Shown here: piece by piece, positions 2,144-19,135 of the stretch
Position numbering within the stretch: the stretch's first letter is position 1
How the letters are laid out: the number at the start of each line of letters is the position of its first letter
Virus record (IMG/VR): IMGVR_UViG_2585427745_000007
Source of the DNA: a virus
Taxonomy: Duplodnaviria > Heunggongvirae > Uroviricota > Caudoviricetes
DNA: 19,135 nucleotides
Strand: one strand, 5' to 3'
Program-made: the position numbers and the translations under genes
Notes under the pieces: model-generated
What the model was told of the DNA's origin: nothing
Database searches by the model: none
Seen by the model: the letters and a program-made list of their open reading frames with translations, nothing else

Positions 2144-4043
2144 TTCTGCAGGAGCGATAGCAACCGGCCTCCTTGCGCTAAAAATTCCTGTCCCTCTGAC
2201 GACAGTTCAGTGGGCAGATCGACATTATTACCTTCCGAAAGAGTCATCTTACACCCCGGGGCGGTGGGAAACACTGCCGTTTCAGGTTGCCATCATGAAC
2301 AGCATGGGGAATGACCGGATCCGCACTGTTAATCTGATTAAATCTGCCCGTGTTGGTTATACAAAGATGTTGCTGGGAGTGGAGGCTTATTTTATTGAGC
2401 ATAAATCACGCAACAGCCTTCTTTTCCAGCCCACGGATTCTGCTGCTGAAGATTTTATGAAATCTCATGTGGAACCCACGATCAGGGATGTGCCGGTTTT
2501 ACTCGATCTTGCACCGTGGTTTGGGCGTAAACATCGTGATAATACCCTCACGCTGAAACGTTTTTCATCGGGCGTGGGCTTCTGGTGCCTGGGCGGGGCT
2601 GCCGCTAAAAACTACCGTGAAAAATCCGTGGACGTGGTCTGCTATGACGAACTTTCCTCGTTCGAACCGGATGTCGAAAAAGAGGGGTCGCCAACCCTGC
2701 TTGGGGATAAACGTATTGAGGGCTCTGTATGGCCCAAATCCATTCGCGGCTCGACGCCTAAAATCAAAGGCACCTGCCAGATCGAAAAAGCGGCCAACGA
2801 GTCGGCGCATTTCATGCGTTTTTATGTGCCCTGCCCACACTGTGGGGAGGAGCAGTATCTGAAATTTGGCGATGAATCCACGCCTTTTGGCCTTAAATGG
2901 GAGAAGGACAGCCCCGAAAGCGTTTTCTACCTCTGTGAACATCATGGCTGCGTGATCCATCAGTCTGAGCTTGACCAGAGCAACGGGCGGTGGATCTGTG
3001 AAAACACGGGGATGTGGACCCGTGACGGTCTGACGTTTTTCAGCGCCGCGGATAATGAAATTCCGCCGCCGCGCTCCATCACGTTCCATATCTGGACAGC
3101 GTACAGTCCGTTCACCACCTGGGTACAGATTGTCTATGACTGGCTGGATGCACTGAAAGATCCCAACGGCCTGAAAACCTTTGTGAACACCACGCTGGGC
3201 GAGACCTGGGAAGAGGCCGTGGGCGAAAAACTCGATCACCAGGTACTGATGGATAAGGTCGTGCATTACACGGCGGCGGTGCCAGCCCGGGTGGTTTATC
3301 TGACGGCGGGCATTGACTCGCAGCGAAACCGTTTTGAGATGTATGTCTGGGGATGGGCACCGGGAGAGGAAGCTTTTCTGGTGGATAAAATCATCATTAT
3401 GGGGCGTCCTGATGAGGAAGAGACGCTGTTACGTGTGGATGCGGCGATCAACAAAAAATACTGCCATGCAGATGGCACCGAAATGACCATTTCCCGTGTC
3501 TGCTGGGACACCGGGGGGATCGATGGTGAAATTGTCTATCAGAGGTCAAAAAAACACGGTGTTTTCCGGGTGCTGCCGGTAAAAGGTGCATCTGTTTATG
3601 GCAAGCCGGTGATCACCATGCCGAAAACCCGCAATCAGCGGGGCGTGTATCTGTGTGAAGTGGGGACGGACACCGCAAAAGAAATTCTCTATGCCCGTAT
3701 GAAAGCCGATCCCACTCCTGCGGATGAAGCCACGTCGTATGCCATCCGTTTTCCTGATGATCCGGAGATTTTTTCGCAGACAGAGGCGCAGCAACTGGTC
3801 GCGGAAGAGCTTGTGGAGAAGTGGGAAAAAGGAAAGATGCGTCTGCTGTGGGATAACAAAAAGCGGCGTAACGAAGCGCTGGACTGCCTGGTGTATGCCT
3901 ATGCGGCATTACGTGTGTCCGTGCAACGCTGGCAGCTTGATCTGGCTGTACTGGCAAAATCCCGGGAAGAAGAGACGACCCGGCCAACCCTTAAAGAACT
4001 GGCAGCGAAGCTGTCCGGAGGAGTGAATGGTTACAGTCGCTGA
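2115..4043 (+). CDS. A: Terminase large subunit A
   Basis: Lambda gpA-like throughout ([27 protein letters not shown]...). Start chosen at ATG 2115 (MISDEL...), overlapping the nu1 3' end by 29 nt as in lambda, rather than the ORF-track alternative start at 2073. Confidence 0.95.
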
Positions 4044-15013: not shown

Positions 15014-15711
15014 TGCAGGATATTCGCGAAGAAAGTCTGAACGAGTCGGTTAAGTCAGAGCAGTCACCGCGGGTGGTACTCTGGGAAATCGACCTGACGG
15101 TGCAGGGCGGTGAGCGGTATTTTTTCTGCAATGAGCTGAATGAAAAAGGGGAGCCGGTGACCTGGCAGGGGCGTGAATATCAGGCGTACCCGATTGAGGG
15201 GAGTGGCTTTGAGATGAACGGGAAGGGCAGCAGTGCCAGACCATCGCTGACGGTGTCCAATCTGTTTGGTCTGGTCACCGGGATGGCGGAAGACCTGCAG
15301 AGTCTGGTGGGGGCCACGGTGGTCCGCCGCCGGGTGTATGCCCGTTTTCTGGATGCGGTGAATTTCGTTGCGGGCAATCCGGAGGCGGACCCGGAGCAGG
15401 AGCTGAGTGACCGCTGGGTGGTGGAGCAGATGTCGCAGCTGACAGCCATGACGGCCTCGTTTGTGCTGGCTACACCGACCGAGACGGACGGGGCGCTGTT
15501 TCCCGGTCGCATCATGCTGGCGAACACCTGTATGTGGGATTACCGGGGAGATGAATGCGGGTATAACGGTCCTGCGGTGGCGGATGAGTTCGACAACCCC
15601 ACCACGGATATCCGTAAGGACAGATGCAGCAAGTGCATGCGCGGGTGTGAACTGCGCAGGAATGTCGGCAATTTTGGCGGTTTCCTTTCCATTAATAAAC
15701 TTTCGCAGTAA
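15013..15711 (+). CDS. L: Minor tail protein L
   Basis: 232 aa; VVLWEIDLT..GGERYFFCNE.NEKGEPVTWQGREYQ and the C-terminal Cys cluster (CSKCMRGC...NVGNFGGFLSINKLSQ) are gpL-like. Confidence 0.95.
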   Translation: MQDIREESLNESVKSEQSPRVVLWEIDLTVQGGERYFFCNELNEKGEPVTWQGREYQAYPIEGSGFEMNGKGSSARPSLTVSNLFGLVTGMAEDLQSLVGATVVRRRVYARFLDAVNFVAGNPEADPEQELSDRWVVEQMSQLTAMTASFVLATPTETDGALFPGRIMLANTCMWDYRGDECGYNGPAVADEFDNPTTDIRKDRCSKCMRGCELRRNVGNFGGFLSINKLSQ

Positions 15712-15721
15712 ATCCCGGTTT

Positions 15722-16465
15722 ATGACACAGACTGAATCAGCGATTCTGGCGCATGCCCGGCGGTGTGCGCCTGCGGAGTCGTGCGGCTTCGTGATAAGCA
15801 CGCCGGAGGGGGAGTGGTATATCCCTTGTGTGAATATTTCTGCAGAGCCGGAGGCGTATTTTCGTATCGCACCGGAAGACTGGCTGCGGGCAGAGATGCA
15901 GGGGGAGATTGTGGCACTGGTCCACAGTCATCCCGGTGGGCTGCCCTGGCTGAGCGAGGCTGACCGGCGGCTGCAGATAAAAAGCGCACTGCCCTGGTGG
16001 CTGGTCTGCCGGGGTGACATTCACAAATTCCGCTGTGTGCCACATCTGACAGGACGGCGCTTTGAGCACGGGGTGACGGACTGTTACACGCTGTTCCGGG
16101 ATGCTTATCATCTGGCGGGGACTGAGATGCCGGATTTTCATCGCGAGGATGACTGGTGGCGCAACGGTCAGAACCTTTACCTGGACAATATGGCGGTCAC
16201 CGGCTTTTACCGGGTGCCCCTGTCCTCTGCACAGGCGGGCGATATTCTGCTGTGCTGCTTTGGTGCTTCGGTACCGAACCATGCCGCCATTTACTGCGGC
16301 AACGGTGAGCTGCTTCACCATCTGCCTGAACAACTGAGTAAACGGGAGAGGTATTCCGAAAAATGGCAACGACGAACGCATTCAGTCTGGCGTCACCGCC
16401 ACTGGCACGCATCTGCCTTCACGGGGATTTACAACGATTTGGCCGCCGCCTCAGCCTGTATGTGA
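15722..16465 (+). CDS. K: Tail assembly protein K (N-terminal JAMM/MPN+ metalloprotease-like motif, C-terminal NlpC/P60-like domain)
   Basis: MTQTESAILAHARRCAPAESCGF... with HSHPGGLPWLSEAD (HxHx7SxxD) and a Cys/His pair (DCYTLF, NHAAIY). Start taken at ATG 15722 rather than the ORF-track upstream extension into L; overlaps I by 103 nt. Confidence 0.88.
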   Translation: MTQTESAILAHARRCAPAESCGFVISTPEGEWYIPCVNISAEPEAYFRIAPEDWLRAEMQGEIVALVHSHPGGLPWLSEADRRLQIKSALPWWLVCRGDIHKFRCVPHLTGRRFEHGVTDCYTLFRDAYHLAGTEMPDFHREDDWWRNGQNLYLDNMAVTGFYRVPLSSAQAGDILLCCFGASVPNHAAIYCGNGELLHHLPEQLSKRERYSEKWQRRTHSVWRHRHWHASAFTGIYNDLAAASACM

Positions 16466-17043
16466 ACACGGCAGCGGAAGCCATTCGCGCCCTGTCGATG
16501 CAGATGCCGGGCTTTCGCCGTCAGATGAACGAAGGCTGGTACCAGATACGTATTGCCGGTTATGACACGGCACCGGAGGCGGTGTACGCCCGTCTTCACG
16601 AACAGCTGGGTGAGGGAACGGTCATCCACATTGTGCCGCGACTGGCCGGGGCCGGAAAGGGTGGACTGCAGATTGTGCTGGGGGCGGCAGCCATCGTGGG
16701 CTCTTTCTTCACTGCCGGGGCATCAATGGCGTTATGGGGTTCAGCCCTGGCAGCCGGTGGTTTTTCTGCCACCACGATGCTGTTTTCACTTGGAGCCAGC
16801 ATGATTCTGGGCGGTGTGGCCCAGATGCTGGCCCCGAAGGCAAAAACACCGGATTACCGCGCAACGGATAACGGCAGACAGAACACGTACTTTTCCTCAC
16901 TGGATAACATGATTGCCCAGGGGAACCCGATGCCGGTGCCTTACGGGGAAATGCTGGTTGGCTCCCGCCGTATATCCCAGGACATCAGCACCCGTGATGA
17001 AGGCGGGGGCGGAAAGGTCGTGGTTATCGGGCGGCAGGGGTAA
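16363..17043 (+). CDS. I: Tail assembly protein I
   Basis: 226 aa; MATTNAFSLASPPLARICLHGDLQRFGRR... and the glycine-rich hydrophobic C-terminus are gpI-like. Confidence 0.93.
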   Translation: MATTNAFSLASPPLARICLHGDLQRFGRRLSLYVNTAAEAIRALSMQMPGFRRQMNEGWYQIRIAGYDTAPEAVYARLHEQLGEGTVIHIVPRLAGAGKGGLQIVLGAAAIVGSFFTAGASMALWGSALAAGGFSATTMLFSLGASMILGGVAQMLAPKAKTPDYRATDNGRQNTYFSSLDNMIAQGNPMPVPYGEMLVGSRRISQDISTRDEGGGGKVVVIGRQG

Positions 17044-17089
17044 AAAGAATAAAAAAATCCCGCAGTGATCGCGGACAGGAACTGCGGGA
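17044..17089 (-). terminator. Intrinsic terminator on the minus strand: 8-bp stem (UCCCGCAG/CUGCGGGA) followed by UUUUUUUAUUCUUUUU
   Basis: Inverted repeat at 17058-17065 and 17082-17089, with an A-run on the plus strand (17044-17057) that is a U-tract on the minus strand; lies immediately after the I stop codon. Confidence 0.5.
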
Positions 17090-17147
17090 GAGTTACGAAG
17101 ATTAAGTGTAAGGAATTATTCTTATATCACGACAAAAAAATTAACGC
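17050..17147 (-). ncRNA. Candidate small noncoding RNA (about 100 nt) in the I-J intergenic insertion, defined by a promoter-like element and an intrinsic terminator
   Basis: No ORF in the predicted transcript (no ATG; GTG followed by an immediate stop); bounded by the -35/-10 element at 17154-17181 and the terminator at 17044-17089. Purely sequence-based prediction. Confidence 0.3.
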
Positions 17148-17153
17148 AGAGAA

Positions 17154-17181
17154 ATTATACGCGCCACAGTCAGTTTGTGAA
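17154..17181 (-). promoter_or_regulatory. Sigma70-like promoter on the minus strand: -35 TTCACA (17176-17181), 16-nt spacer, -10 TATAAT (17154-17159)
   Basis: Perfect TATAAT and 5/6 match to TTGACA with a 16-nt spacer, read directly from the reverse complement. Confidence 0.35.
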
Positions 17182-17256
17182 AATGTGAAGATATTCAGAA
17201 TTTTTATGCCATTACCGGTTTTAACCAACAGGATTATCGGTGGGCATGAAAGAAAA

Positions 17257-17289
17257 CCCCGGTATCTGCTGATACCGGGGTTTCTCTTT
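17257..17289. terminator. Bidirectional intrinsic-terminator-like hairpin: perfect 10-bp stem CCCCGGTATC/GATACCGGGG, 4-nt loop, flanked by AGAAAA upstream and TTTCTCTTT downstream
   Basis: Perfect inverted repeat at 17257-17280 with A-tract and T-tract flanks, about 100 bp upstream of the J start. Confidence 0.5.
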
Positions 17290-17386
17290 AGCATGGCAGA
17301 AATGTGTTTCATGCTTTTCGGGCGAAGGATATCCGACTTCTGTACGGAATGGCAAGTGGCGGTTAATTTATTCAGGGGAAGGCTGT

Positions 17387-19135
17387 ATGGGAAAAGGTGG
17401 CGGTAAGGCACACACGCCTCGTGAGGCGAAGGATAATCTCAAATCCACGCAGATGATGAGTGTGATTGATGCGATTGGTGAGGGACCGATAGAAGGCCCG
17501 GTGAAGGGACTGCAGAGTATCCTGGTGAACAAAACCCCGCTGACGGACACGGACGGTAATCCCGTGATACACGGTGTGACCGCGGTCTGGCGTGCCGGGG
17601 AGCAGGAGCAGACACCACCGGAAGGCTTTGAGTCCTCCGGAGCTGAAACCGGACTGGGCGTGGAAGTGACGAAGGCAAAACCGGTGACGCGCACCATTAC
17701 GTCCGCGAACATTGACCGCCTGCGGGTTACCTTCGGGGTGCAGTCACTGGTGGAGACCACCTCAAAGGGTGACCGTAACCCGGCATCCGTCCGCCTGCTG
17801 ATTCAGTTACAGCGTAACGGTAACTGGGTGACAGAAAAGGACGTCACCATTAACGGCAAGACCACCTCACAGTTCCTGGCCTCGGTGATTCTGGATAATC
17901 TGCCTCCCCGGCCCTTTAACATCCGGATGGTCAGGGAGACGGCGGACAGCACCACGGACCAGCTGCAGAATAAGACGCTGTGGTCGTCATACACCGAAAT
18001 CATCGATGTGAAACAGTGCTACCCGAACACGGCCATTGTGGGGCTGCAGGTGGATGCGGAGCAGTTCGGCGGCCAGCAGATGACGGTGAACTACCATATC
18101 CGCGGTCGCATCATCCAGGTGCCGTCAAACTATGACCCGGAAAAACGCACGTACAGTGGTATCTGGGACGGCAGCCTGAAACCGGCATACAGCAACAACC
18201 CGGCCTGGTGTCTGTGGGACATGCTGACTCACCCGCGCTACGGCATGGGAAAACGTCTGGGGGCGGCGGATGTGGACAAGTGGGCGCTGTATGCCATCGG
18301 GCAGTACTGCGACCAGACGGTCCCGGATGGTTTCGGGGGGACCGAGCCGCGGATGACCTTTAATGCGTACCTGGCACAACAGCGTAAGGCGTGGGACGTT
18401 CTCAGTGATTTCTGCTCGGCGATGCGCTGTATGCCGGTATGGAACGGCCAGACGCTGACGTTCGTTCAGGACCGTCCGTCGGATGTGGTGTGGCCGTACA
18501 CCAACAGCGATGTGGTGGTGGATGATAACGGCGTGGGGTTCCGCTACAGCTTCAGTGCCCTGAAGGACCGGCACACGGCGGTGGAGGTGAATTACACCGA
18601 CCCGCAGAACGGCTGGCAGACCTCCACGGAACTGGTGGAAGACCCGGAAGCCATACTGCGCTACGGACGCAACCTGCTGAAGATGGACGCGTTCGGCTGT
18701 ACCAGCCGCGGTCAGGCCCACCGTGCCGGACTGTGGGTGATAAAGACCGAACTGCTGGAAACGCAGACGGTGGATTTCACGCTCGGGTCTCAGGGGCTGC
18801 GGCACACACCCGGTGACATCATTGAAATCTGTGATAACGACTATGCCGGGACCCTGACCGGCGGACGTGTCCTGTCCATTGATGCTGCCACCCGCACCCT
18901 GACGCTGGACCGTGAAGTGACACTTCCGGAGACCGGTGCCGCCACGGTGAACCTGATTAACGGCAGCGGTAAGCCGGTGAGTGTGGACATCACCGAACAC
19001 CCCGCGCCGGACCGGATACAGGTCAGTACCCTGCCTGATGGTGTGGAGACATACGGGGTGTGGGGACTCTCCCTGCCGTCACTGCGCCGTCGCCTGTTCC
19101 GCTGTGTCTCCGTCCGGGAAAACACGGACGGCACC
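17387..19135 (+). CDS. J: Tail tip / host specificity protein J (N-terminal about 583 codons; continues beyond the window end)
   Basis: MGKGGGKAHTPREAKDNLKSTQMMSVIDAIGEGPIEGPVKGLQS... is nearly identical to the lambda gpJ N-terminus; RBS AGGGGAAGG upstream; frame open to the window edge. Absent from the ORF track only because no stop codon falls in the window. Confidence 0.93.
   Translation, partial: MGKGGGKAHTPREAKDNLKSTQMMSVIDAIGEGPIEGPVKGLQSILVNKTPLTDTDGNPVIHGVTAVWRAGEQEQTPPEGFESSGAETGLGVEVTKAKPVTRTITSANIDRLRVTFGVQSLVETTSKGDRNPASVRLLIQLQRNGNWVTEKDVTINGKTTSQFLASVILDNLPPRPFNIRMVRETADSTTDQLQNKTLWSSYTEIIDVKQCYPNTAIVGLQVDAEQFGGQQMTVNYHIRGRIIQVPSNYDPEKRTYSGIWDGSLKPAYSNNPAWCLWDMLTHPRYGMGKRLGAADVDKWALYAIGQYCDQTVPDGFGGTEPRMTFNAYLAQQRKAWDVLSDFCSAMRCMPVWNGQTLTFVQDRPSDVVWPYTNSDVVVDDNGVGFRYSFSALKDRHTAVEVNYTDPQNGWQTSTELVEDPEAILRYGRNLLKMDAFGCTSRGQAHRAGLWVIKTELLETQTVDFTLGSQGLRHTPGDIIEICDNDYAGTLTGGRVLSIDAATRTLTLDREVTLPETGAATVNLINGSGKPVSVDITEHPAPDRIQVSTLPDGVETYGVWGLSLPSLRRRLFRCVSVRENTDGT

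What the first reader, a model, noticed from the sequence alone, without database searches (positions are those of the whole stretch)
17044..17386. Expanded I-J intergenic region (343 bp) carrying a promoter-plus-terminator unit for a candidate ~100-nt minus-strand RNA
In lambda, as I recall it, I and J are about 60 bp apart; here the gap is 343 bp and AT-rich. On the minus strand there is a near-consensus promoter (TTCACA, 16 nt, TATAAT at 17154-17181) pointing toward a strong intrinsic terminator (8-bp stem plus UUUUUUUAUUCUUUUU at 17044-17089). The roughly 100-nt transcript between them has no plausible ORF. This is the classic moron layout (own promoter and terminator inserted between late genes), but with a noncoding payload on the strand opposite to the tail operon. 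I do not recognise it as a known prophage sRNA.
Basis: partly seen in the sequence, partly recalled or inferred. Interest (0 to 1): 0.65.

Follow-up and report, generated by a model that had tools for sequence, protein, structure and literature searches.

The report
Known prophage small RNA gene (PasB family)
The promoter-plus-terminator unit between the phage tail genes I and J is real, but it is a divergent copy of a small regulatory RNA gene (PasB in EPEC, EcOnc22-24 in O157) that has already been detected experimentally, so it is a correct rediscovery rather than a new kind of element.

Summary
The I-J gap is 343 bp, against 60 bp in lambda. It is AT-rich. On the minus strand it carries an 11/12 sigma-70 promoter (17181..17154) aimed at an 8-bp hairpin plus U7 terminator (17088..17051).

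The unit is a member of a known sRNA family. PasB of EPEC E2348/69 (83 nt, Northern-verified, Hfq-dependent, RIL-seq hub) lies at the same place and on the same strand. It shares the promoter block, the terminator 3' arm and the U7 tail with the window. The Northern probe for EcOnc22/23/24 of O157 Sakai (~85 nt, destabilised without Hfq) also matches this I-J RNA.

The window allele is 73% identical to PasB over the RNA. It is 100% identical to an unannotated stretch of CFT073 and present at >=99% identity in 633 complete E. coli records. The published PasB census used blastn with word size 28, and the longest word shared here is 25 nt, so it probably missed this allele.

Conserved across alleles are an A-R-N block, UCCUU and UUAAUCUUC just 5' of the terminator, which fits a trans-acting Hfq sRNA.

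The other 180 bp (17205-17386) is an invariant, highly structured module that remains unexplained.

The parts
16363..17043 (+). Tail assembly gene I. RefSeq starts it at the equivalent of 16462 in CFT073. Its stop codon is at 17041-17043.
   Evidence: Pfam Lambda_tail_I, E = 6e-17. CFT073 annotation 'tail assembly protein'.
17042..17088 (-). Intrinsic terminator of the sRNA. The stem is 17088-17081 paired with 17066-17059, the loop is 17080-17067, the U7 run is 17057-17051, and a distal U-run reaches into the I stop codon. On the + strand the hairpin is followed by AGAGTTACG, so it is one-directional.
   Evidence: The 3' arm CUGCGGG plus U-run was required by both scan patterns, so its constancy there is by construction. 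In the 15 BLAST-sampled and separately fetched copies, CUGCGGGA plus six U are invariant and the 5' arm CCCGCAG is in 13 of 15.
17051..17147 (-). Predicted primary transcript of 97 nt: a PasB-family sRNA of the allele called 'B' here. The stretch equivalent to the annotated 83-nt PasB is 17134..17051 (84 nt).
   Evidence: Alignment with E2348/69 PasB. The +1 position is inferred from the -10 hexamer. GCGUUA at +1 is nearly invariant across alleles.
17095..17123 (-). Conserved block that is largely unpaired in the single-sequence fold. It comprises the (A-R-N)3 stretch AAGAAUAAU (17123-17115), UCCUU (17114-17110) and UUAAUCUUC (17105-17097). It is the putative Hfq distal-face site plus seed.
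   Evidence: Conserved among 15 BLAST-sampled alleles. AUCUUC is present in 128 of 145 units found with a seed-independent pattern. No helix common to the alleles covers it.
17154..17181 (-). Sigma-70 promoter with -35 TTCACA (17181-17176), a 16-nt spacer and -10 TATAAT (17159-17154).
   Evidence: The -10 is conserved in nearly all alleles, while the -35 hexamer varies.
17184..17199 (-). Conserved dyad TCTGA-N6-TCACA just upstream of the -35, centred at about -44.5. It is a candidate regulator-binding site with CRP-like half-sites.
   Evidence: The left half-site is constant and the spacer varies among the 52 distinct promoter-bearing units; the right half-site was required by my filter, but is also invariant in the 15 BLAST-sampled copies. 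It is not significant as a lone motif.
17205..17386 (.). Module 'X'. It is an invariant 182-bp segment between the sRNA promoter and J. It holds a 13-bp perfect hairpin (17254-17266 with 17271-17283) flanked by T-runs on both strands. The J Shine-Dalgarno sequence GGGGAAGG lies at 17375-17382.
   Evidence: At least 99% identical in 1446 genomes, with no divergent relatives. Fold z-scores are -5.8 (minus strand) and -6.3 (plus strand). It is absent from the E2348/69, Stx2c-phage and Sakai versions of the gap.
17387..19135 (+). Tail tip / host-specificity gene J. It runs off the end of the window.
   Evidence: Pfam FNIII-A_GpJ and Phage-tail_3. CFT073 annotation gpJ.

Best explanation
Positions 17051-17199 on the minus strand are a stand-alone small-RNA gene of the PasB / EcOnc22-24 family. 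The gene is inserted, moron-fashion, between tail genes I and J of a lambdoid prophage. It is transcribed from its own sigma-70 promoter in the lysogen and ended by its own intrinsic terminator. The 84-97-nt RNA most likely binds Hfq in two ways: through its 3' hairpin plus U7 tail, and through an internal A-R-N block. It would then regulate host and accessory-genome mRNAs in trans by base pairing, using the conserved unpaired stretch UCCUU...UUAAUCUUC just 5' of the terminator. What is shown here: the anatomy, the homology, the locus identity and the conservation pattern. What is shown for homologues in the literature: expression, size, Hfq dependence and many RNA partners. What is inferred: that this particular allele is expressed, that it binds Hfq, and which bases form the seed.
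For: (1) PasB is annotated at NC_011601 1466343..1466261 on the minus strand (Table S6 of PMC8550237). That places it between tail assembly protein I and gpJ, antisense to both. (2) The PasB Northern probe matches window 17057-17076 at 20 of 23 bases. (3) In the alignments, an ~80-nt promoter block and the last 25 nt are essentially identical, and the RNA is 73% identical overall. (4) The EcOnc22/23/24 peaks fall in the I-J gaps of Sakai Sp15, Sp14 and Sp11 on the anti-tail strand. The reverse complement of their Northern probe is identical over 23 nt to the Sp15 copy of this RNA. They are listed as ~85 nt and destabilised in delta-hfq. (5) In 137 of 150 pattern matches the I stop codon lies within 60 nt of the terminator. 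(6) The A-R-N block, UCCUU and UUAAUCUU are conserved while the flanking bases vary. That is what a trans-acting seed and an Hfq site would produce. (7) PasB is strongly reduced in delta-hfq (log2 fold change -6.8 and -2.4) and is listed with 37 interactions in a supplementary table.
Against: There are no expression data for this allele or for CFT073-type prophages. Rfam has no model for the family, so there is no independent score. The seed is inferred only from conservation; no target was validated for any family member in the papers read (review PMC7873438 lists the target as unknown). No base-pair covariation is available, because both terminator arms are nearly invariant and no other helix is shared. 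The PasB 5' end annotated from RNA-seq lies about 13-15 nt downstream of the +1 predicted from the -10, so the start site or processing is unsettled. The RNA is also perfectly antisense to the late tail transcript, so a cis role is not excluded.
Confidence: 0.85

Rival explanations
1. The RNA acts mainly in cis. It is fully complementary to the I-J junction of the Q-antiterminated late transcript. It would form a ~97-bp duplex, or its promoter would cause head-on polymerase collisions. Either could lead to RNase III processing or reduced J expression during induction, or to interference with superinfecting relatives that carry the same junction.
For: The gene lies entirely inside the late operon on the opposite strand, and its terminator abuts the I stop codon. 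Allelic diversity with a fixed promoter and terminator could also fit phage-versus-phage specificity.
Against: A purely antisense role puts no constraint on particular internal bases. Yet the A-R-N block, UCCUU and UUAAUCUU are conserved while neighbouring bases vary. PasB is listed with 37 RNA interactions, reported to include core- and accessory-genome transcripts, and needs Hfq. It is expressed in uninduced lysogens, when the late operon is silent.
Confidence: 0.1
2. The promoter and terminator are a decayed or chance remnant with no function of their own, for example the leftover 3' end of a lost moron such as sodC.
For: In about a dozen IMG/VR loci and in E. albertii, a sodC gene occupies the gap on the same strand and the sRNA body follows it without its usual promoter. 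So the body can exist as a gene tail.
Against: The promoter-bearing unit is present in a third of complete E. coli genomes. Its -10, +1 region, seed and terminator are conserved across at least 40 RNA alleles. Two homologues give discrete Hfq-dependent bands on Northern blots.
Confidence: 0.03
3. The segment encodes a small protein, or is a fragment of a protein gene or an insertion sequence.
For: ORFs of 113 aa (+) and 94 aa (-) span the gap. One phage record annotates a 66-aa hypothetical protein in 17207-17407.
Against: There are no Pfam or PHROG hits. The ORFs run through the hairpins and the promoter. RefSeq annotates nothing here in the E. coli records listed in the searches. Alleles differ by indels that would break any reading frame. 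The 343-bp segment did not turn up outside lambdoid tail regions in the places examined.
Confidence: 0.02

Closest known systems
PasB (pathogenicity-associated sRNA B) of EPEC E2348/69 prophage PP6; Pearl Mizrahi et al. 2021 (PMC8550237); census by Zhu, Shabalina and Storz 2026 (bioRxiv 10.64898/2026.05.13.724894)
   Same: It has the same locus (I-J gap), the same strand, a near-identical promoter block, an identical terminator 3' arm plus U7, and a similar length. It shares the conserved UCCUU and UU(A/G)AUCUUC stretch that Zhu et al. proposed as the seed region.
   Different: It is only 73% identical over the RNA. The 5' third, the bases between the seed and the terminator, and the terminator loop all differ. 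The 5' arm of the hairpin sits at a different offset. The longest shared exact word is 25 nt. The published census used blastn with word size 28 and required more than 75% query coverage, so it probably did not count this allele. That last point is my inference.
EcOnc22/EcOnc23/EcOnc24 of E. coli O157:H7 Sakai prophages Sp15, Sp14 and Sp11; Tree et al. 2014 (PMC4104026)
   Same: It has the same locus, strand and architecture. It is about 85 nt on Northern blots and destabilised without Hfq. GUUAAUCUUC and the terminator arms are shared.
   Different: It is a third allele, 73% identical to the window RNA. Its -35 hexamer is poor (TTCCGG). The surrounding gap is the 240-bp version without module X. 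Neither Table S6 of the 2021 paper nor the 2026 preprint links PasB to EcOnc22-24.
Anti-sRNAs AgvB and AsxR (Rfam RF02702, RF02703) and the convergent sRNA pairs at the PR' moron site of lambdoid prophages
   Same: They are also prophage-borne, Hfq-binding, stand-alone sRNA genes at a conserved moron insertion point, with a constant 3' part and a variable 5' part.
   Different: They lie at a different site (downstream of Q/PR', not in the tail operon), are 51-60 nt long, and have no sequence similarity. Rfam finds nothing in the window, although the same search finds AgvB in Sakai.
Protein-coding morons of lambdoid phages (the Juhala/Hendrix concept), such as sodC
   Same: They also have their own promoter and terminator inserted between late genes. 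sodC occupies this very gap, on this strand, in some relatives.
   Different: Here the payload is a non-coding RNA.

Membership tests
PasB / EcOnc22-24 prophage sRNA family | The gene lies in the gap between tail assembly gene I and tip gene J of a lambdoid prophage, on the strand opposite the tail operon, with its terminator abutting the I stop codon. | tested here: met
   Window, E2348/69, Sakai Sp15/Sp14/Sp11, and 137 of 150 collection matches.
PasB / EcOnc22-24 prophage sRNA family | Sequence homology to the 83-nt PasB of E2348/69. | tested here: met
   73% identity over the RNA, with the last 25 nt identical. The upstream ~80-nt promoter block has only a few substitutions. The PasB probe matches at 20 of 23 bases. 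By percent identity this is a distinct allele, not a near-identical variant.
PasB / EcOnc22-24 prophage sRNA family | [quoted passage not shown] | tested here: met
   An 8-bp stem plus U7. The fold is -19.4 kcal/mol with z = -2.3.
PasB / EcOnc22-24 prophage sRNA family | [quoted passage not shown] 2026. | tested here: met
   UCCUU and UUAAUCUUC are present and largely unpaired in the fold. There is a one-base difference from PasB (UUGAUCUUC).
PasB / EcOnc22-24 prophage sRNA family | Expressed as a discrete ~80-100-nt RNA whose level depends on Hfq. | not testable with these tools
   Shown only for the E2348/69 and Sakai alleles. It needs a Northern blot or RNA-seq on a strain carrying this allele.
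AgvB/AsxR anti-sRNA family (RF02702/RF02703) | A match to the Rfam covariance models, a location 3' of PR' at the moron site, and a length of 51-60 nt. | tested here: not met
   No Rfam hit at the gathering threshold or at E <= 10. As a positive control, AgvB was found in Sakai at 96.5 bits. The window element lies in the tail operon.
Moron (autonomous transcription unit inserted in a late operon) | Extra DNA relative to a close relative, lying between two late genes and carrying its own promoter and terminator. | tested here: met
   The gap is 343 bp against 60 bp in lambda. The promoter and terminator are as described. GC drops to 0.35.
Class II CRP-dependent promoter (considered for the conserved upstream dyad) | A TGTGA-N6-TCACA site centred at -41.5. 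| tested here: not met
   The half-sites match at 9 of 10 positions and are conserved with a variable spacer. However, the centre is about -44.5 and the lone-motif count is not above chance.

The most novel reading that the evidence does not exclude
The I-J gap may be a hypervariable sRNA cassette rather than a single gene. Here it carries a fixed promoter with a conserved upstream dyad and a fixed terminator. These frame interchangeable RNA bodies. I found at least 40 distinct RNA sequences, arrays of two or three units, and fusion behind sodC. The allele in this window is about as common as PasB itself and dominant in ExPEC lineages such as CFT073, S88 and ATCC 25922. It would have a target set different from PasB. 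It was probably missed by the published census. In addition, the invariant module X (17205-17386) may encode a second, undescribed ~75-nt minus-strand RNA, or a conserved attenuator in front of J.
Probability: 0.25. Interest if true: 0.45.

Novelty: new member of a known kind. Interest (0 to 1): 0.25.

Why it matters
For the scan, the value is a correct identification. An unannotated feature present in a third of complete E. coli genomes is a member of an experimentally verified, Hfq-dependent prophage sRNA family. Three secondary points may help specialists. First, PasB (EPEC, 2021) and EcOnc22-24 (EHEC, 2014) are the same locus family, a link not made in the papers read. Second, the family has several deeply diverged alleles. 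One of them is the main form in extraintestinal pathogenic strains, and a word-28 BLAST census would miss it, so prevalence and pathovar associations may need revisiting. Third, the conservation pattern pinpoints a likely seed, an A-R-N Hfq site and a candidate regulator site that can be tested directly.

Tried and rejected
- Rfam at the gathering and E <= 10 thresholds gave nothing meaningful. The best hits were terminator-like look-alikes on the second hairpin.
- AgvB/AsxR membership was rejected on site, size and sequence, with a positive control.
- Protein-coding readings of the gap were rejected: no Pfam or PHROG hits.
- I looked for an in-window trans target of the seed and found only the self-antisense site.
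- I looked for structure covariation. Only the terminator stem is common to all alleles and its arms are nearly invariant, so covariation says nothing either way.
- I tested module X as a decayed copy of the sRNA unit or as a dispersed repeat. It has no similarity to the sRNA unit. The only extra hits in the fetched loci were the palindrome matching itself, and the genome-wide place count (median one per genome, at most four) fits prophage copies. No divergent relatives exist to analyse.
- I tested EcOnc33 (~71 nt, with a terminator) as a possible transcript of module X. It maps to the esterase-holin region instead.
- I tested the conserved dyad as a canonical class II CRP site. The spacing is wrong by 3 bp and the motif count is not above chance. 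By eye a LexA box also fails, because the critical CAG is CAT here.
- The PasB target list in Table S3 could not be extracted within the supplement look-up limit.

Full report
**Observation.** The window's I gene ends with TAA at 17041-17043 and J starts with ATG at 17387, so the gap is 343 bp. The flanking ORFs match Pfam Lambda_tail_I, and FNIII-A_GpJ plus Phage-tail_3. In lambda the same gap is 60 bp (15445-15504). GC drops to 0.35 inside the gap, against about 0.6 in the flanking genes.

On the minus strand, TTCACA-16-TATAAT (17181..17154) matches 11 of 12 consensus positions and is the best promoter-like site in 16000-18500. Downstream lies an 8-bp GC-rich stem (17088-17081 with 17066-17059), followed by A, U7 (17057-17051) and AUUCUUUUU. 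On the plus strand the same hairpin is followed by AGAGTTACG, so it terminates in one direction only. The predicted transcript (17147..17051, 97 nt) holds no ORF.

**What it is.** Rfam has no match, but the literature does. Pearl Mizrahi et al. 2021 (PMC8550237, Table S6) list PasB at NC_011601 1466343..1466261 on the minus strand. It is 83 nt long, lies in prophage PP6, and was probed with AATCCCGCAGTGATCGCGGAGCT. In E2348/69 that interval lies between the tail assembly protein (ending at 1466255) and gpJ (starting at 1466496), antisense to both. The probe matches window 17057-17076 at 20 of 23 bases.

Aligning the two gaps shows an ~80-nt promoter block with only a few substitutions, an identical terminator 3' arm plus U7, and a diverged RNA body. 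Over the RNA the identity is 73%. PasB gave a Northern band of the expected size. It was strongly reduced in delta-hfq (log2 fold change -6.8 and -2.4), was higher under the non-activating growth condition, and is listed with 37 interactions in a supplementary table.

A second, older detection is the same locus. Tree et al. 2014 (PMC4104026, Table S2) list EcOnc22, EcOnc23 and EcOnc24 in Sakai prophages Sp15, Sp14 and Sp11. They are on the plus strand, about 85 nt on Northern blots, and destabilised in delta-hfq. All three peaks fall in the I-J gaps of those prophages, whose tail genes are on the minus strand. Coordinates differ between NC_002695.1 and NC_002695.2 by roughly +140 at 1.94 Mb, judged from AgvB. 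That shift puts the peaks on the RNA body.

The decisive evidence is their Northern probe, GGGAGAGAACGATGAAGATTAACTGATGAGTTA. Its reverse complement contains GTTAATCTTCATCGTTCTCTCCC, which is identical to the Sp15 copy. Table S6 of the 2021 paper notes EHEC homologues for PasA and PasD but none for PasB. The 2026 preprint does not mention EcOnc names at all.

**Distribution and alleles.** The 343-bp gap is 100% identical to an unannotated stretch of CFT073 (NC_004431 1364141-1364483) and to many other ExPEC genomes. The sRNA unit alone occurs in 1836 of 5426 complete E. coli genomes, at 3415 places. The window allele is present at 99% identity or more in 633 records.

Among species representatives, only E. 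albertii gave credible additional hits. Three hits in unrelated taxa look like contaminating contigs. IMG/VR holds at least 120 loci. In 137 of 150 pattern matches the I stop codon is within 60 nt of the terminator.

I found 52 distinct promoter-to-terminator units and 40 distinct RNA sequences. They fall into several alleles:
- The PasB/PasB-2 type, in E2348/69 and the PPompW phages.
- The window type, in CFT073, the Stx2c and Stx1a phages, and PhiR5_1.
- The Sakai type.
- At least three more types.

The part of the gap between the promoter and J also comes in two forms. One is the 343-bp form with module X, and the other is a 240-bp form. Both forms combine freely with the RNA alleles, which indicates recombination within the conserved promoter block.

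Zhu et al. searched bacterial genomes with the 83-nt E2348/69 sequence, blastn word size 28 and more than 75% query coverage. The longest exact word shared with the window allele is 25 nt. I therefore infer that this allele was not counted in that census.

**How it probably works.** The positions conserved across alleles are:
- the -10 hexamer;
- GCGUUA at the predicted +1;
- a 5' U-run;
- an A-R-N repeat block (AAGAAUAAU here, AAAAACAAC in PasB);
- UCCUU;
- UU(A/G)AUCUU;
- the terminator arms and U-tail.

My first IMG/VR pattern required AUCUUC, so I repeated the scan with a pattern anchored only on the promoter and the terminator. In that sample, 128 of 145 units have AUCUUC and most of the rest have AUCUUU. 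The only helix common to all alleles is the terminator, so the conserved block is probably single-stranded.

This is the layout of an Hfq-dependent base-pairing sRNA. The 3' hairpin plus U-tail would bind the proximal face of Hfq, the A-R-N motifs would bind the distal face, and an adjacent seed would pair with targets. It agrees with the seed position that Zhu et al. proposed for PasB. These steps are inferred for this allele. Expression and Hfq dependence are shown only for the sister alleles.

A cis-antisense effect on the late I-J transcript remains possible, because the RNA is perfectly complementary to it. That role would not explain why specific internal bases are conserved.

**The promoter region.** The -35 hexamer varies between alleles, but a dyad TCTGA-N6-TCACA just upstream (17199-17184) is constant while its 6-nt spacer varies. 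The half-sites resemble a CRP site at 9 of 10 positions. However, the centre is about -44.5 rather than -41.5, and such a motif is not rare enough on its own (2 found, 0.59 expected). I record it as a candidate regulator site, not as a CRP site.

**The rest of the gap.** Positions 17205-17386 (module X) are at least 99% identical in 1446 genomes and have no divergent relatives. The module folds far better than shuffled sequence, with z = -5.8 on the minus strand and -6.3 on the plus strand. It holds a 13-bp perfect hairpin with T-rich runs on both sides.

On the minus strand, a weak promoter (TTGCCA-18-TATCCT, 17355..17326) could give a ~75-nt RNA that ends at this hairpin. On the plus strand, the hairpin resembles the terminator-like hairpins that lie just upstream of J in lambda itself and in the 240-bp form of the gap. 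With no sequence variation and no expression data, I cannot decide between these readings. ORFs crossing the module have no family matches.

**Verdict.** I rate it a new member of a known kind, meaning a divergent allele. Interest is low to moderate. It rests mainly on three points: the PasB to EcOnc22-24 equivalence, the breadth of allelic diversity, and the unexplained module X.

Noticed in passing
window 17205-17386: Module X is an invariant 182-bp segment between the sRNA promoter and J. It is at least 99% identical in 1446 genomes. It has a 13-bp perfect hairpin (17254-17283) flanked by T-runs on both strands, and fold z-scores near -6. It could be a second ~75-nt minus-strand sRNA or a plus-strand attenuator before J. 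It is absent from the E2348/69 and Sakai versions of the gap.
   Followed up: partly
window 17184-17199 (minus strand): The dyad TCTGA-N6-TCACA upstream of the sRNA -35 is constant across the promoter-bearing alleles I collected, while its spacer and the -35 hexamer vary. The right half-site was part of my filter, but it is also invariant in the BLAST-sampled copies. The half-sites are CRP-like, but the dyad is centred about 3 bp off the class II position.
   Followed up: partly
L032 902-1775 (also L079, L082, L088, L091, L094, L102, L115, L119, L127, L130; E. albertii L030): In these relatives the I-J gap is about 860 bp and holds a Cu/Zn superoxide dismutase gene (sodC) on the sRNA strand, with its own terminator. 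The sRNA body follows it without the usual promoter.
   Followed up: partly
L077 323-1126; L068 4419-4782; L072 348-703; L017 13-734: Some phages carry two or three sRNA units in tandem in the I-J gap. One paralogue has a different putative seed (GGUUAGUCAACAUCG) and a different -10.
   Followed up: partly
L019 745-806 (lambda 15445-15504); L001 2930-2965; L006 2040-2066: Lambda itself and the 240-bp form of the gap have a GC hairpin followed by a T-run on the tail-operon strand just upstream of the J ribosome-binding site. A terminator-like hairpin before J therefore seems to be a conserved feature, independent of the sRNA insertion.
   Followed up: no
L028 (Streptomyces flavalbus NZ_JBHTEB010000006.1), L024 (Parendozoicomonas haliclonae NZ_FWPT01000051.1), L029 (Clostridiales MAG SFGJ01000116.1): Short contigs in assemblies of unrelated organisms carry E. 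coli-type lambdoid I-J sequence, including the sRNA unit. This is most likely contamination or mis-binning.
   Followed up: no
L006, L007, L008, L009 (E. coli O157:H7 Sakai): Coordinates in Tree et al. 2014 (NC_002695.1) are offset by roughly +140 bp from NC_002695.2 at 1.94 Mb, judged from AgvB. PasB and EcOnc22-24 are the same locus family, a link not stated in the papers read.
   Followed up: yes
L018 959-1159 (phage ASU11, equivalent to window 17207-17407): A 66-aa 'hypothetical protein' is annotated across module X and overlaps the J start. It has no recognisable ribosome-binding site, and the overlapping window ORFs that cover the gap have no family match. It is probably an over-call.
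   Followed up: partly
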